Assembly (NCBI GenBank): GCA_046758445.1
Contig: JBHIAE010000004.1
Coordinates: forward strand, 1-64,000
Origin: Candidatus Thorarchaeota archaeon
GTDB taxonomy: Archaea; Asgardarchaeota; Thorarchaeia; Thorarchaeales; Thorarchaeaceae
Length of the DNA stretch: 64,000 nucleotides
Reading direction: 5' to 3'
Below the pieces are notes generated by a model, which did no database searches, had not been told where the DNA came from, and worked only from the letters and a program-made list of their open reading frames with translations. Both the position numbers and the translations under genes were made by a program. Every line of letters starts with the position of its first letter. Positions within the stretch are counted from its first letter, which is position 1. Positions 18,143 to 22,370 of the stretch are shown one piece after another.

Positions 18143-19096
18143 TTATCCTGATCTCTCAACTGGCACAAACCACTCCTCCAGGGAGATCTGTGACTGGGTG
18201 TCCACAATGCTCTCATTTGCGTAAAGTCGGCGAAGGAATTGATTGTAGCCTTCGACGCTCTCTGTACGGACAGTGGCAAACAGATTGTATTCCTCGCTTG
18301 TACGATGTAGATCCCATACCTCCTCCATCTCGCTGATTCTTAGTGCAGTTGGAGAAATGGTGCCGTGTCTTGACTTGATTTGGAGGAAGAACTTGATTGG
18401 GAGCCCGATATGCCTGAACTGAATGTCTACGGAGTAGCCTGCGATTGCACCTCGGCTCTTGAGCCTTCTCATGGCTTTTGATACTGCTGGCTGACTGAGG
18501 GTCGGAGTCATCCGCTTTCCAACCTCGCTCTGGGCAAGAGGGAATGGATTGTCCTCATTCGGAGCATACCTATAGAGTGTCTTCATCAGCTCCCAGTCCT
18601 TGGCCGACACTGGTTCTGGACGGGCCTTCTCTCTCTTCAGGATGAACCCGTGCGTCTTGTACGTCGTCAGCACCTGCACAAGCTGATACTTCTCGGCTCC
18701 TGACTTTGCCACAACCCCGTCAACGTCATCAAGGAAATCTTCGAACTGGCCCTCCCCACGAAACCGGAAAAGTCCAAGGAGAGAGTGTTCTCCCGAGATT
18801 CCGTCCAAGGATTCAAGCTCCGGTATCTGCAGAAGCCCTCTACTCACCGCAAGCTCTCTAGGATTGGTCTTAATGAGTAGCATTGTACTCTTCTCAGGGA
18901 AGACCCGAGCAGGATCAAATACAGTCACGTACGCTTGAATGACCTCGTTTTGAACTAGCCGTCGAATGGCACGAGCGACCCAGTTGCGGCCTTTCCCTAA
19001 TTGCTCAGCAAGACTGGCAAGACTCTCTCTAGAATCACGAAGCAGCCTTTTCAGAAGCTTCTGCTCGCTCTCTGTAATGGATTGCACGGCATGCAC
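18143..19096 (-). CDS. Tandem (double) Lrp/AsnC-family transcriptional regulator
   Basis: Two HTH + RAM repeats (RESLASLAEQLG...IQAY; SQPAVSKAMRRL...IAGY); divergent from ahcY. Confidence 0.8.
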   Translation of the reverse strand: MHAVQSITESEQKLLKRLLRDSRESLASLAEQLGKGRNWVARAIRRLVQNEVIQAYVTVFDPARVFPEKSTMLLIKTNPRELAVSRGLLQIPELESLDGISGEHSLLGLFRFRGEGQFEDFLDDVDGVVAKSGAEKYQLVQVLTTYKTHGFILKREKARPEPVSAKDWELMKTLYRYAPNEDNPFPLAQSEVGKRMTPTLSQPAVSKAMRRLKSRGAIAGYSVDIQFRHIGLPIKFFLQIKSRHGTISPTALRISEMEEVWDLHRTSEEYNLFATVRTESVEGYNQFLRRLYANESIVDTQSQISLEEWFVPVERSG

Positions 19097-19167: not shown

Positions 19168-20465
19168 GTGATGACAATGGCCGATTACAAGGTAAAGGAC
19201 ATTGGGCTTGCCGAAGAAGGCAGGATGCTAATCGACTATGCGGAGAAACACATGCCTGTGCTTATACATCTCAGGAAGAAGTACTCCAAGACAAAGCCAC
19301 TCAAGGGTATGAAGATTGCTGGCTGTCTCCATGTGACAAAGGAAACAGCTGTACTCGTGGAAACTCTTCGAGAGGTCGGAGCTGAAGTGGCCTGGTCTGG
19401 CTGCAATCCACTGTCGACGAACGACAAAGTGGCTGCAGGACTTGCCGCCAATGATGTTCCGGTGTATGCCTGGCACAATCTGAACACCGAGGAATACTAC
19501 TGGTGCATTGAACAGACCCTCAAGACTGAGCCAACGTTGACGCTTGATGACGGAGCGGATCTGATTTTTACGTTACACAACAAGCACCAAGAGTTGATAC
19601 CCAATCTCTATGGAGGTTCTGAAGAAACCACAACTGGGGTGATTCGTGTCCGAGCAATGGCTGAAGATAGTGCCCTGAAGTACCCAATCATGGCCGTCAA
19701 TGATGCAGACACCAAACACTTGTTCGACAACGTATACGGTACCGGACAGAGCGTTTTCGATGGTGTAATGAGAGCTTCTGCGATTCTGATTGCTGGTAAG
19801 ACCGTAGTCATCGGTGGCTACGGGTTCTGTGGTCGCGGAATGGCGGAGCGTGCAAGAGGACTGGGTGCAAATGTGATTGTCACTGAAGTTGATCCAATTC
19901 GCGGACTACAGGCTCGAATGGATGGTTTCAGGGTTATGCCTATGAATGATGCTGCACGTGAAGGCGACCTGTTTCTGACTGCCACTGGTATGAAGGACAT
20001 CATCACTGGTACTCATATCAAAGAGATGAAGGATGGAGCAATTCTGGGAAATGCTGGACATTACAATGTTGAGATCAATGAGCCAGACCTTGCCAAGCTT
20101 AGCACTGGGAAGAGAAGGGTTCGACCTTCTTTGGATGAGTATACATTGAAGGATGGCAGAATTGTGTACCTTCTCGGAGAAGGTAGGCTTGTCAATCTGG
20201 TCGCTGCGGAAGGTCACCCCAGTGTCAGAAGAGCATTCGCTGCTCTCTAGATGGAAAGGTGATGGACCTCAGCTTTGCAGGCCAGCTGAATGCAATGATC
20301 TGGTTGACCAAGCATGGGAAGGACCTCAAACCAGCCGTGTATGAGTTTCCGAAGGAACTTGATCAGCAGACTGCCTTGGCAAAACTAGAAACCATGGGTA
20401 TAAAGATAGACAAATGGACCCCAGAGCAGGAGGCCTACGCAAAGGCTTACGCCGAGGGAACCTAG
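19168..20465 (+). CDS. ahcY: S-adenosylhomocysteine hydrolase, split by a 32-nt intron: join(19168..20224,20257..20465)
   Basis: GCLHVT, CNPLST, DDGAD, SEETTTG, KHLFDNVYGTGQS and GRLVNLVAAEGHPS motifs. Removing 20225-20256 restores GHPS-E-VMDLSF and gives one ORF of 421 aa (418 aa from ATG 19177). Confidence 0.92.
20225..20256 (+). other. Putative bulge-helix-bulge mRNA intron (32 nt) in ahcY
   Basis: TCAGAAGAGCATTCGCTGCTCTCTAGATGGAA. Outer helix UCACC:GGUGA; central helix CCAG:AUGG; bulges UG^U and AA^A; inner hairpin GAGCA-UUCGC-UGCUC; contains an in-frame TAG. Confidence 0.8.
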
Positions 20466-20513: not shown

Positions 20514-22370
20514 CTACCCAGAATCTTCAGCTTCCAATTCAGGCGATTTAGTCAATTCCAGCCACTTTTGCGTTTGCTCAATCTTATTTCGGGCTTCCTT
20601 CACTCTACGGGGATGAGCCTTCATCCACTTCTCCAGTATTCTTCGCTTTCTCTTGTCGTTGGGAGGTGCTTGAATCCCCCACATAGCAACATCCTCTTGA
20701 CTACTAGTTGCCGTAGTCCATTTCACTGAAACTCGACCTGTCTGCTCAGAGTAGCTGATGTATGAAGGGTCCTGTTCCTTAGTCATAATACCATTGGCCA
20801 AACAGAGTTGTTTCTCGTCCTCAACAAAGCCTGAGGGATTGGTACGAACAATATAGTCCAACTCTTTCGCAGCCTTAGCGTCTGCTGAGTCCTCAGATTC
20901 CATCAAGCTCTCTAGCATGGTAATAGACAACTCACGAAATCGGCCCTCAACAGCGTCCCTTCCGTATCTACGCTCAGTAGGTTTCCCATGCTTCTTAATG
21001 AAGTCAACTTGACTACCTGTCAGTCTTGACACGAATCTGTATTTGTCAGCCTTCAAAGGATCATGAAGAACTACAGAACGACTCCAAGTGATTCTTGCAT
21101 AGTCCTTTGCATCCACTGCGACTGAGCCTTCTTCAGGAACTAGCTCACAAAGATACGCTAACTGAACCCGAGAAGAGCCATATTTAATCCAATCCGGTAG
21201 TCGGACTCCTTGCAGAACCTTGTCCCCGACGGTCATTCCTAGTCTGGCCAAAAGACGCCCAATGATATTCGGAACGTGAAAACCACCCTCCGACTTGTTT
21301 CTGTTGCGTATAATTGGAGTTGCAACTTCTCCAATTCGCTGCAGCATCGATCTCACAATGGTGCGGCGAGTGGCATCGTTTTCATAGTAGAATATACGGT
21401 GACCAGATTCGATGCTCCCATCGGAAGCAACGATTGCAAAAAGCCTCGCCATCAATGTGATGAAATCCACTTCTATGAGGAACTTTGGTCTGACAATCTG
21501 CCTCCCTTGACCCAATCGAGTTATTCCAGACTCGACGTCTTTGAGCGACTTCCCTTGTGCGTCCATCAGCAGCTGAAGCGTTCTTCCTCGCAAATGAGCT
21601 GAGTTCGGAGTGAAATCGGAGATGATTCGCCCTTCTCGACCTGTTACCTTCTCTTGATAGTCAGCTAGCTGTCTTACGACGTTGCTGAGGTCATAATCCC
21701 CATTGAGGCCAAGAAAGTTACGTCCTTCGCGAGTAATTGGCTTTCTCTCTCTCTTGCCGAAGAAGAAGAGCTCATCCGCGAACAGGTTGAGATAGTTGAA
21801 TTTGCGAGTGTCTTTGCGCCAAAAGTAGAGAAGCGATCCCACGACGGCTATCCGCATCTCCTCATCAGGGTTTACATCCAGCCCAAGATTCTTGTTCAGT
21901 TTCTCTTCTATCTGCTTACGATTTGCTTGTATCGACTTTCGTACATCTAGCAGCCATCTTGGACCATGATTGTAGTTGTAGGGTTTCAAGTGAGCGAAGG
22001 CAACTCGTTGAATAGGAGTTCTGGCAAGAAGATGCTCTAGAGCCCTGGCCATCCTTCCCACACTGTGCCGTTTTCGGTTTCTAATTGAACGAAGAGCACG
22101 AAAGACTGTTGAGGAATCGATAAGATTCTCGAGTGCTCTAGTTGGTTGTTTCGATTCTAGCTTCCTTCTCATGACCTCATTCTCGACCACTTGGTTGATC
22201 AATTCTGGAGTCCTTCTTCCTGAAACCCACGTCCTAGCAGTACCGAATGGCACGTCCTGAGCCATACGAGCCACTGCCGAATGAGAGAGCTCCGAGTCCT
22301 CTCTTCTAATACGCATGAGCCGAAAGTATTCCTTGACTGCATTCAACATCTTGGCGAACATCTTGGCCAA
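20514..22370 (-). mobile_element. Free-standing HTH + double-LAGLIDADG (DOD/intein-type) homing-endonuclease-like protein
   Basis: N-terminal HTH (SHSAVARMAQDVPFGTARTWVSGRRTP); motif 1 LFAIVASDGSI; LPDWIKYGSSRVQLAYL linker; motif 2 AYLCELVPEEGSV. No HINT splicing termini recognised. The 5' end is uncertain. Confidence 0.65.
22345..22367. repeat. Tandem direct repeat AACATCTTGGC x2 (period 12)
   Basis: Copies at 22345-22355 and 22357-22367, at the junction between the endonuclease-like ORF and the truncated flavoredoxin. Confidence 0.75.

What the first reader, a model, noticed from the sequence alone, without database searches (positions are those of the whole stretch)
20214..20262. Bulge-helix-bulge mRNA intron in S-adenosylhomocysteine hydrolase (ahcY)
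Seen in sequence: ahcY breaks exactly in the conserved GHPS-E-VMD motif. Excising 32 nt (20225-20256) joins AGT G|AG GTG ATG GAC CTC AGC TTT (S-E-V-M-D-L-S-F) and yields a full-length enzyme of about 420 aa. The two neighbouring 32-nt registers give K or V instead of E. Independently, the pre-mRNA folds into a relaxed BHB: outer helix UCACC(20214-18):GGUGA(20258-62), central helix CCAG(20219-22):AUGG(20251-54) with 3 Watson-Crick pairs plus G.A, 3-nt bulges UGU(20223-25) and AAA(20255-57), and an inner hairpin. Established: archaeal EndA cuts after the second nucleotide of each bulge. Here that gives UG^U and AA^A, which are the boundaries needed to restore the protein. BHB introns in archaeal protein genes are rare; the classic case is crenarchaeal cbf5. 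Unspliced mRNA hits UAG (20248-50) and loses the adenine-pocket Met/Phe and the C-terminal region. Inference: this is a real EndA/RtcB-spliced mRNA intron in a core methyl-cycle gene, and annotation pipelines would mis-call it as a pseudogene.
Basis: partly seen in the sequence, partly recalled or inferred. Interest (0 to 1): 0.92.

Follow-up and report, generated by a model that had tools for sequence, protein, structure and literature searches.

The report
tRNA-type intron inside Asgard ahcY
The only S-adenosylhomocysteine hydrolase gene of this Thorarchaeota (Asgard) archaeon is split by a 32-base insert shaped like a tRNA intron; relatives keep such an insert at the same codon, so the mRNA very probably has to be cut and rejoined by the tRNA-splicing enzymes, which papers I could search document inside only one other archaeal coding sequence (cbf5).

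Summary
ahcY (19171-20465, +) is broken at GHPS|EVMD by 32 nt (20225-20256). Removing them gives one open 420-aa frame. No second ahcY was found in the 93%-complete genome.

The fold in this genome is a relaxed bulge-helix-bulge (BHB) and is not above chance on its own. The case rests on comparison:
- 17 of 400 Asgard genomes, in three families, plus 14 metagenome contigs, carry a 20-34 nt insert at exactly this site.
- In all 17 genomes (13 of the 14 contigs), cutting after the second base of each bulge restores S-E-V-M-D.
- The central helix covaries (C-G to U-A).
- Exon 2 is under strong purifying selection (dN/dS 0.03-0.14 where it can be estimated).

The host encodes a crenarchaeal-type alpha/beta splicing endonuclease, with the specificity loop lysine, and RtcB.

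Pseudogene, artefact, split-enzyme and recoding readings fit poorly.

The kind is known (crenarchaeal cbf5 pre-mRNA intron); the gene and phylum are new in print as far as I could search. This scan has already reported the same ahcY intron on other DNA (at least 11 other genomes).

Confidence that it is a real EndA/RtcB-spliced mRNA intron: about 0.88.

The parts
19171..20224 (+). ahcY exon 1 (ATG 19171; residues 1-351 plus the first base of codon 352)
   Evidence: AdoHcyase and AdoHcyase_NAD Pfam domains (E 1e-58, 4e-55); 82-97% identical to ahcY of the same family.
20225..20256 (+). 32-nt BHB-type intron (predicted cuts UG^U at 20224|20225 and AA^A at 20256|20257)
   Evidence: only this register restores GHPSEVMD and an open 420-aa frame; homologous 28-33 nt inserts at the same site in related Thorarchaeota.
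20257..20465 (+). ahcY exon 2 (last two bases of the Glu codon, 67 further codons, stop TAG 20463-65)
   Evidence: AdoHcyase profile positions 226-291 of 299; dN 0.02-0.3 with synonymous sites near saturation among intron-bearing alleles.
20213..20218 (+). outer helix h, 5' strand (GUCACC), exon 1
   Evidence: pairs with 20258-20263 (GGUGAU); the three pairs next to the bulge are kept in 15-16 of 16 distinct sequences.
20219..20222 (+). central helix H, 5' strand (CCAG), exon 1 (Pro codon bases 2-3, Ser codon bases 1-2)
   Evidence: 93.8% of cells paired; the second pair switches C-G (9) to U-A (6).
20223..20225 (+). 5' bulge UGU (5' splice site after 20224); U20225 may pair with G20250
20226..20250 (+). 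inner hairpin h' of the intron (apical stem 20230-34:20242-46, loop AUUCGCU 20235-41); holds the in-frame TAG 20248-50 that stops unspliced translation
   Evidence: the apical stem covaries among 32-nt introns (A-U/G-C/C-G/U-A).
20251..20254 (+). central helix H, 3' strand (AUGG), intron
   Evidence: CUGG or CUAG in relatives, which gives four standard pairs.
20255..20257 (+). 3' bulge AAA (3' splice site after 20256)
   Evidence: a 3-nt purine-rich bulge (AAA, AGA, ACA) in all 17 genomes.
20258..20263 (+). outer helix h, 3' strand (GGUGAU), exon 2

Best explanation
A 32-nt archaeal bulge-helix-bulge (tRNA-type) intron interrupts the coding sequence of the only ahcY gene found.

Proposed mechanism:
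1. The pre-mRNA folds so that exon bases ACC/CCAG pair with intron AUGG and exon GGU. This places the two splice sites in bulges on opposite strands, four base-pair positions apart.
2. The host's heterotetramer-type (alpha-beta)2 splicing endonuclease cuts after the second base of each bulge (20224|20225 and 20256|20257).
3. RtcB joins the exons and probably circularises the intron.
4. The mature mRNA encodes a 420-aa S-adenosylhomocysteine hydrolase with an intact GHPSEVMD motif.
5. Unspliced mRNA would end at UAG 20248-50 and give a 359-aa product without the C-terminal 68 residues.

The intron is most likely an old, tolerated passenger of Thorarchaeota ahcY that has been lost repeatedly, not a regulator.

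Shown here: the insert, its boundaries, its conservation and covariation, selection on exon 2, and the presence of the enzymes. Inferred: cleavage and ligation in vivo.
For: 1. Boundaries. Only excision of 20225-20256 restores E and one open 420-codon frame. These are the positions the BHB rule predicts.
2. Same-site inserts elsewhere.
   - 17 of 400 Asgard genomes carry a 20-34 nt insert at this site: 12 of 86 in the window's family, 2 of 3 in f13 and 3 of 3 in f31.
   - 14 metagenome contigs carry a 28-33 nt insert there; a 15th pattern match (L149) is not convincing.
   - In all 17 genomes the same rule restores GHPSEVMD, although lengths differ and most break the frame.
3. Covariation.
   - 83.4% of cells are paired, against 75.5 +/- 1.3 in shuffles (0 of 500 reach it) and 19-46% when the partners are slid.
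   - The central pair changes C-G to U-A, where the 5' base is the wobble base of the Pro codon.
   - The closing pair of the inner helix shows four Watson-Crick types.
4. Codon choice. The Ser codon inside the helix is AGY in 17 of 17 intron-bearing alleles, against 12 of 22 intronless ones.
5. Exon 2 is translated in the spliced frame. dN/dS is 0.025-0.14 where it can be estimated and dS is near saturation.
6. One ahcY only in a 92.7%-complete genome.
7. Machinery.
   - A catalytic EndA subunit best matches Aeropyrum pernix EndA (3p1z_B, E 3e-45), without gaps through the Crenarchaea-specific loop. K50 aligns to K44, the RNA-recognition residue (PMC3241643).
   - A second EndA paralog has no His at the catalytic position in the printed alignment (my reading).
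   - One RtcB.
   - Asgard archaea are reported to have (alpha-beta)2 EndA with this loop (PMC5829648).
8. Not an assembly artefact. The same truncated product is on 3 Logan contigs. One of them, from an independent run, is identical over 19168-20465.
9. The BHB-enforced fold is only 1.5 kcal/mol above the MFE.
10. A second gene of this genome, hutU, has a 32-nt insert with the same geometry that restores YGESGQ.
Against: - There is no RNA or protein evidence. That is expected if the entries come from DNA.
- In this genome the motif is relaxed: G.A as the fourth central 'pair', and a 5' bulge that may be only 2 nt.
- Its MFE fold is not the BHB and is not unusually stable (z -1.56).
- A genome-wide scan shows that BHB-like, frame-restoring geometry of this quality is common by chance.
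- Archaeal translation is coupled to transcription, so some truncated product is expected.
Confidence: 0.88

Rival explanations
1. Split enzyme: the two ORFs (359 aa ending in VRRAFAAL, and 67 aa starting at ATG 20262) are translated separately, perhaps by termination-reinitiation, and assemble into an active hydrolase without any splicing.
For: Gene callers predict exactly these two products. The conserved Met of VMD supplies an ATG 11 nt after the stop.
Against: It does not explain the conserved BHB geometry, the covariation between an exon wobble base and an intron base, or the AGY-only Ser codon. It loses the conserved Glu. The G330 allele has a 21-nt in-frame insert without a stop, and the f31 alleles carry further inserts, so no common two-ORF solution exists. 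The purine-rich stretch before the ATG abuts it with no spacing and is not conserved (AGGUA, AGGUC and AGGUU in relatives).
Confidence: 0.05
2. Recently inactivated pseudogene: a 32-nt insertion broke ahcY and the gene is decaying.
For: Frameshift and premature stop. The closest relative, G007, has an uninterrupted gene.
Against: It is the only copy found. Exon 2 is under strong purifying selection across intron-bearing lineages that are saturated at synonymous sites. The insert is conserved at the same site in 17 genomes of three families, with structure-preserving changes.
Confidence: 0.03
3. Translational recoding: ribosomal frameshift or bypass (as in T4 gene 60) over the insert.
For: A hairpin followed by a stop codon lies at the break.
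Against: There is no matching take-off and landing codon. No route recreates the Glu codon from unspliced RNA, because GAG exists only after joining G|AG. A frameshift would put about 10 variable residues into an invariant active-site motif. Insert lengths of 20-34 nt and unrelated insert sequences in f13 and f31 show no coding constraint.
Confidence: 0.02
4. Assembly or sequencing artefact: the 32 nt are not in the organism's DNA.
For: The source is a metagenome-assembled genome of 113 contigs.
Against: Identical DNA occurs in an independent Logan assembly, and the truncated product is on three contigs. Related inserts occur in many independent MAGs and JGI contigs.
Confidence: 0.01

Closest known systems
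BHB intron in the cbf5 (pseudouridine synthase) pre-mRNA of Crenarchaeota (Desulfurococcales, Sulfolobales; Watanabe 2002; Yoshinari 2006; Yokobori 2009, PMC2738675)
   Same: A short ORF-less intron (16-44 bp in cbf5) inside a coding sequence. The motif is often relaxed. Cuts are predicted between the second and third bulge residues. It depends on a hetero-oligomeric endonuclease. It shows lineage-specific loss and confuses gene callers.
   Different: Different gene (methyl-cycle enzyme) and different phylum (Asgard/Thorarchaeota). cbf5 splicing was shown by cDNA and in vitro cleavage; here splicing is only inferred. Here the site recurs in three Asgard families, and one family has at least five inserts in the same gene.
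[quoted passage not shown]
   Same: Same hBHBh' geometry, the same size class (about 20-35 nt) and the same enzymes. Non-canonical or relaxed motifs go with EndA that carries the specificity loop (PMC5829648, PMC3241643).
   Different: The host RNA is an mRNA, so the exon halves of the helices are also codons and splicing must restore a reading frame. Neither paper reports introns in protein-coding genes.
BHB intron in the 5' UTR of Haloferax volcanii HVO_1309 (PMC7714728)
   Same: An mRNA processed by the splicing endonuclease; a 46-nt intron found as a circle and cut in vitro.
   Different: It lies in the untranslated leader, not in the coding sequence, and the enzyme is the homodimeric euryarchaeal type.
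Unconventional HAC1/XBP1 mRNA splicing and RTCB-dependent 'SOS splicing' in eukaryotes (PMC12779559)
   Same: Spliceosome-independent excision from an mRNA, defined by RNA structure, with RtcB-family ligation; a frame change decides the protein made.
   Different: A different endonuclease (IRE1, or unknown), different motifs, and a regulatory or defensive role that is not shown here. This is a resemblance in logic only.

Membership tests
Archaeal BHB (EndA-dependent) intron | Two 3-nt bulges on opposite strands separated by a 4-bp central helix | tested here: inconclusive
   In the window: 3 Watson-Crick pairs plus G.A, a clean 3' bulge AAA, and a 5' bulge UGU whose third base can pair, so formally 2 nt. 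This is a relaxed motif. It is fully met in 13 of 17 homologous introns (CCAG:CUGG or CUAG:CUAG).
Archaeal BHB (EndA-dependent) intron | Flanking helices h (exon-exon) and h' (intron-intron) | tested here: met
   A 6-bp outer helix 20213-18:20258-63 and an inner hairpin with a 5-bp apical stem. The outer three pairs are kept in relatives.
Archaeal BHB (EndA-dependent) intron | Cuts after the second base of each bulge give a functional joined RNA | tested here: met
   The predicted cuts restore GHPSEVMD and a 420-aa frame here, and the same motif in all 17 genomes and 13 of the 14 metagenome contigs.
Archaeal BHB (EndA-dependent) intron | Structure kept by compensatory change across homologues | tested here: met
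   C-G to U-A in the central helix; four pair types at the closing pair; covariation score 0.232 against 0.095 in shuffles; slid controls 0.036-0.081. Related sequences are not independent.
Archaeal BHB (EndA-dependent) intron | Host has a splicing endonuclease able to cut relaxed motifs, and an RtcB ligase | tested here: met
   Two EndA paralogs. One is a catalytic subunit with the Crenarchaea-specific loop and K50 = K44. The other has no catalytic His in the printed alignment. One RtcB.
Archaeal BHB (EndA-dependent) intron | Excision and exon ligation observed in RNA (cDNA junction, circular intron, in vitro cleavage) | not testable with these tools
Pre-mRNA BHB intron (cbf5 type) | Lies inside a coding sequence whose downstream part stays under selection in the spliced frame | tested here: met
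   dN/dS 0.025-0.14 for exon 2 among intron-bearing alleles.
Mobile intron with homing endonuclease (archaeal rRNA-intron type) | Intron-encoded or consistently linked LAGLIDADG endonuclease; repeated copies | tested here: not met
   32 nt is too short to encode a protein. There is no second copy in the genome. The neighbouring 618-aa ORF has no Pfam match and is not next to ahcY in other intron-bearing loci.

The most novel reading that the evidence does not exclude
Splicing of protein-coding mRNAs by the tRNA-splicing machinery is routine and old in Asgard archaea. On this reading the GHPS|EVMD intron predates the split of several Asgard families. It has been inherited vertically with many precise losses. 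It is also one of many such introns: hutU in this genome, and at least five inserts plus a 15-nt micro-exon in ahcY of another family. The closest prokaryotic relatives of eukaryotes would then already live with interrupted protein genes and obligatory mRNA splicing. The alternative that the evidence also allows is repeated independent insertion at a 'proto-splice' site, because the conserved codons themselves supply ACC-CCAG...GGU.
Probability: 0.35. Interest if true: 0.9.

Novelty: new member of a known kind. Interest (0 to 1): 0.78.

Why it matters
- In the papers I could search, endonuclease-dependent splicing inside an archaeal coding sequence is documented for one gene, crenarchaeal cbf5. 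One 5'-UTR case exists in Haloferax. A 2020 paper states this count explicitly.
- Here a core methyl-cycle enzyme of an Asgard archaeon can only be made if its mRNA is spliced. The same holds in many related genomes.
- Archaeal mRNA splicing would therefore reach the lineage closest to eukaryotes.
- It gives a concrete, conserved substrate for testing Asgard EndA/RtcB on mRNA.
- Public annotation systematically truncates these genes to 353-361 aa 'adenosylhomocysteinase'. That can distort metabolic reconstructions and pseudogene counts in Asgard MAGs.

Tried and rejected
2. Spliced transcripts hidden in protein databases.
   - No protein is identical to the spliced product.
   - The 402-aa member of the window's cluster is the intronless allele of a related species.
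   - The best truncated/full-length pair (P0113/P0111, 99.4% aa identity) are both from DNA assemblies.
3. Genome-wide scan of G000 for BHB-like excisions that rejoin long open frames.
   - Strict version: 193 hits against 161-203 in slid controls.
   - Relaxed version: 291 against 281-317.
   - There is no excess, so the number of mRNA introns cannot be estimated this way. ahcY and hutU were among the hits.
4. The intron as a repeated mobile element: blastn-short finds only chance matches of 13 nt or less elsewhere in the genome.
5. Link to the neighbouring 618-aa ORF (20514-22370, minus). It has no Pfam family at E <= 0.001 and is not adjacent in the other intron-bearing loci within the 1.5-kb flanks held.
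6. Known RNA families: only a sub-threshold miRNA chance hit, downstream of the gene.
7. Thermodynamic folding as support for this allele: the MFE is not the BHB and z is -1.56. Several relatives do fold into BHB-like structures unconstrained.
8. The '1 TAG/TGA inside' flags for ahcY of same-genus genomes. The open frames there start only about two codons before the MADYKV start, so these stops most likely lie upstream of the true start. They are not further introns or recoding.
9. An automatic search for all introns in the f31 ahcY picked wrong combinations. The inserts were then read by hand.

Full report
**1. What is in the sequence**

On the + strand an AdoHcyase/AdoHcyase_NAD gene runs from ATG 19171 (or GTG 19168). 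It reads ...LVNLVAAEGHPS, then eight unrelated residues, and stops at TAG 20248-50. The missing C-terminal 68 residues (VMDLSFAGQ...AYAEGT) match AdoHcyase profile positions 226-291 of 299. They lie in another frame at 20259-20465.

Removing 20225-20256 (32 nt) joins AGT G|AG GTG ATG GAC. This gives one 420-codon frame with a single terminal stop. The two neighbouring 32-nt registers give K or V at the Glu position. The outer helix is in fact 6 bp (20213-18:20258-63).

**2. Is the fold itself significant? Not in this genome alone**

- The 68-nt region folds to -22.6 kcal/mol, with z = -1.56 against shuffles. The MFE pairs UGUC with GAUG instead of forming the BHB.
- With the BHB core enforced, the best fold of 20213-20264 is -17.3 against -18.8 kcal/mol for the MFE, so the BHB is accessible but not preferred.
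- I scanned the whole genome for BHB-like geometry whose excision rejoins long open frames. It gave 193 hits against 161-203 in slid-partner controls. A relaxed version gave 291 against 281-317.
- Geometry of this quality is therefore common by chance, and the argument must rest on other evidence.

**3. Comparative evidence**

The closest named ahcY loci are from Thorarchaeota/Promethearchaeota MAGs, so the organism is an Asgard archaeon.

*Distribution.*
- Among 40 relatives, four had a frame-breaking insert at the same codon.
- A pattern scan of 400 Asgard genomes found the insert in 17:
  - 12 of 86 in the window's family (32 nt in G000, G003, G350, G353; 31 nt in eight genomes of seven other genera);
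  - 2 of 3 in family f13 (34 nt);
  - 3 of 3 in f31 (20, 21, 22 nt).
- The other 12 pattern hits are chance matches outside ahcY.
- A metagenome scan matched 15 contigs; 14 carry 28-33 nt variants and one (L149) is not convincing.
- The pattern limits what could be found (inserts of 15-45 nt, conserved flanks), so these counts are lower bounds.

*Frame restoration.* In all 17 genomes one rule, cutting after the second base of each 3-nt bulge, restores GHPSEVMD[L/M]SF.

*Helix conservation.* The central helix is CCAG:CUGG or CUAG:CUAG (four standard pairs) in 13 genomes. It is CCAG:AUGG in three, including the window, and CGAG:CUAG in one.

*Pair counts on the alignment.*
- 83.4% of cells are paired, against 75.5 +/- 1.3 in shuffles (0 of 500 reach it) and 19-46% with slid partners.
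- The central pair changes C-G (9) to U-A (6). Its 5' base is the wobble base of the Pro codon and its 3' base is an intron base.
- The closing pair of the inner helix shows G-C, C-G, U-A and A-U.
- These sequences are related, so the shuffle figures overstate independence. The slid controls keep relatedness and are far lower.

*Codon choice.* The Ser codon inside the helix is AGY in 17 of 17 intron-bearing alleles, against 12 of 22 intronless ones (the same caveat applies).

**4. A detail on the relaxed 5' site**

In the AUGG subclass of 32-nt introns (window, G350, G353 and most metagenome variants), a register in which the third 'bulge' base U pairs with the last base of the inner part fits much better than the textbook register. 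In that register 3-4 of 4 basal positions pair, against 2-3 of 4 in the textbook register.

The 5' site is then a G.A next to a 2-nt bulge. The 3' site is a canonical AAA bulge between two helices. Only a cut after UG gives the Glu codon, so the G.A must act as the fourth position of the central helix. This is the kind of relaxed motif that needs a broad-specificity endonuclease.

**5. The gene is alive**

- Only one ahcY was found in the 92.7%-complete genome.
- Among intron-bearing alleles of the family, exon 2 (204 nt) has dN 0.03-0.30 with synonymous sites near or beyond saturation. dN/dS is 0.025-0.14 where it can be estimated.
- The pairs in f31 give about 0.03; for the f13 pair dS was saturated, with dN 0.058.
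- The region after the insert is therefore translated in the frame that only excision provides.

**6. The machinery**

The genome has two EndA-family genes and one RtcB.
- The 195-aa EndA best matches Aeropyrum pernix EndA chain 3p1z_B (E 3e-45). The alignment runs without gaps through the Crenarchaea-specific loop.
- Its K50 and K52 align with K44 and R46. K44 is the residue shown to be needed for cleavage and for broad specificity (PMC3241643).
- The 250-aa paralog aligns to EndA folds but has no His at the catalytic position in the printed alignment. That fits a structural beta subunit.
- Asgard archaea are reported to have (alpha-beta)2 EndA with this loop (PMC5829648).

**7. Not an artefact**

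The truncated 359-aa product is on three Logan contigs. The one that could be read comes from an independent run and is identical to the window over 19168-20465. Public gene callers split the gene into 359 + 67 aa. Many JGI, NCBI and Logan records of 353-361 aa named 'adenosylhomocysteinase' are such truncations.

**8. History**

On an ahcY tree of 35 rows, intron presence needs at least 6 changes even counting only well-supported branches.
- The early-branching lines of the family that were sampled, apart from G019, all carry the intron.
- The window's sister, G007 (97% aa identity), lacks it.
- The intronless rows come only from the 40-genome sample, whereas intron-bearing rows come from the 400-genome scan, so the proportions are biased.
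- The 31- and 32-nt introns share the apical GC-AUUCG-N-U-GC hairpin and are homologous. The f13 and f31 introns are not alignable to them.

One near-identical pair (96.7% nt identity) differs by presence or absence of the intron. Its differences cluster around the site, and the Ser codon is TCG instead of AGT. This suggests loss by recombination with a divergent intronless allele.

There is no second copy of the intron in the genome. The neighbouring 618-aa ORF is not linked to the intron elsewhere.

**9. Rivals**

- *Split two-polypeptide enzyme.* This is what gene callers imply. It explains neither the conserved geometry, the exon-intron covariation or the AGY bias, nor alleles without a stop in the insert.
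- *Pseudogene.* Excluded by selection on exon 2 and by conservation.
- *Frameshift or bypass.* It cannot recreate the Glu codon.
- *Artefact.* Excluded by independent assemblies.

**10. What is known**

- The closest known case is the cbf5 pre-mRNA intron of Crenarchaeota. It is 16-44 bp, often relaxed, with cuts between the second and third bulge residues. It depends on a hetero-oligomeric endonuclease and shows lineage-specific loss.
- A 2020 study states that besides tRNA and rRNA only cbf5, plus its own 5'-UTR case, were known.
- Papers on Asgard introns deal with tRNA genes only.
- My searches found no paper on BHB introns in Asgard protein genes. The library lacks most subscription journals.
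- This scan has already reported the same ahcY intron on other DNA, in at least 11 genomes, and other introns in this genome. My results agree with those notes and were obtained independently of them.

**11. Verdict**

This is a real feature and very probably a functional EndA/RtcB-spliced mRNA intron (0.88). It is a new member of a known kind. It is of high interest because of the lineage and because it is evidently not a lone case. RNA-level proof is still missing.

Noticed in passing
L143:2433-2464 (minus strand; G000 contig C1, about 123179-123210): The urocanase gene hutU of the same genome is broken at ELVTYGE|SGQV by a 32-nt insert. It has BHB geometry (ACGG / AGA / 11-bp hairpin / CCGG / CGA). 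Cutting after the second bulge base restores YGESGQ. It has no sequence similarity to the ahcY intron.
   Followed up: partly
L122 (G328), minus strand, about 1311-2698; also L123, L124: ahcY of Asgard family f31 (1.4-2.0 Mb genomes) carries at least five short inserts relative to intronless relatives. Two frame-shifting ones flank the TTTGV...WDFD segment. A 27-nt insert sits in NTGH|FNVE (GGCC/ACA...GGUC/AAU). A 30-nt insert sits in AAA|EGHPS (CCGC/AGG...GCGG/AAA). The fifth is the 20-22 nt GHPS|EVMD intron. The last two leave a 15-nt micro-exon.
   Followed up: partly
L160 versus L161/L162: Two Thorarchaeota assemblies 96.7% identical in ahcY DNA differ by presence or absence of the 31-nt intron. 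Nucleotide differences cluster within about 45 nt of the site, and the Ser codon is TCG in the intronless allele and AGT in the other. This hints at loss by recombination with a foreign intronless allele.
   Followed up: partly
L002 (G007), L004 (G001), protein P0122: The intronless alleles closest to the window's gene have Ser (TCT) instead of the otherwise conserved Glu at the junction codon (GHPSSVMD). No single 32-nt deletion of the window's sequence gives TCT.
   Followed up: no
window 20514-22370 (minus): A convergent 618-aa ORF ends 48 nt after ahcY. It has no Pfam family at E <= 0.001. The only relatives in the loci held are a 64-residue, 41%-identical stretch in L012/L039. It is not next to ahcY in other intron-bearing loci. 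The LAGLIDADG reading in another note was not verified here.
   Followed up: partly
public protein records (P0019, P0025, P0044, P0054, P0065, P0074, P0077, P0089, P0113 and their clusters): Dozens of database proteins of 353-361 aa named 'adenosylhomocysteinase' from Thorarchaeota end a few residues after GHPS. They are intron-truncated calls.
   Followed up: yes
window 18143-19096 (minus): Divergently oriented 317-aa protein with an HTH_24 domain and a C-terminal Lrp/AsnC ligand-binding domain, directly upstream of ahcY. The same neighbour is present in the independent Logan contig.
   Followed up: no
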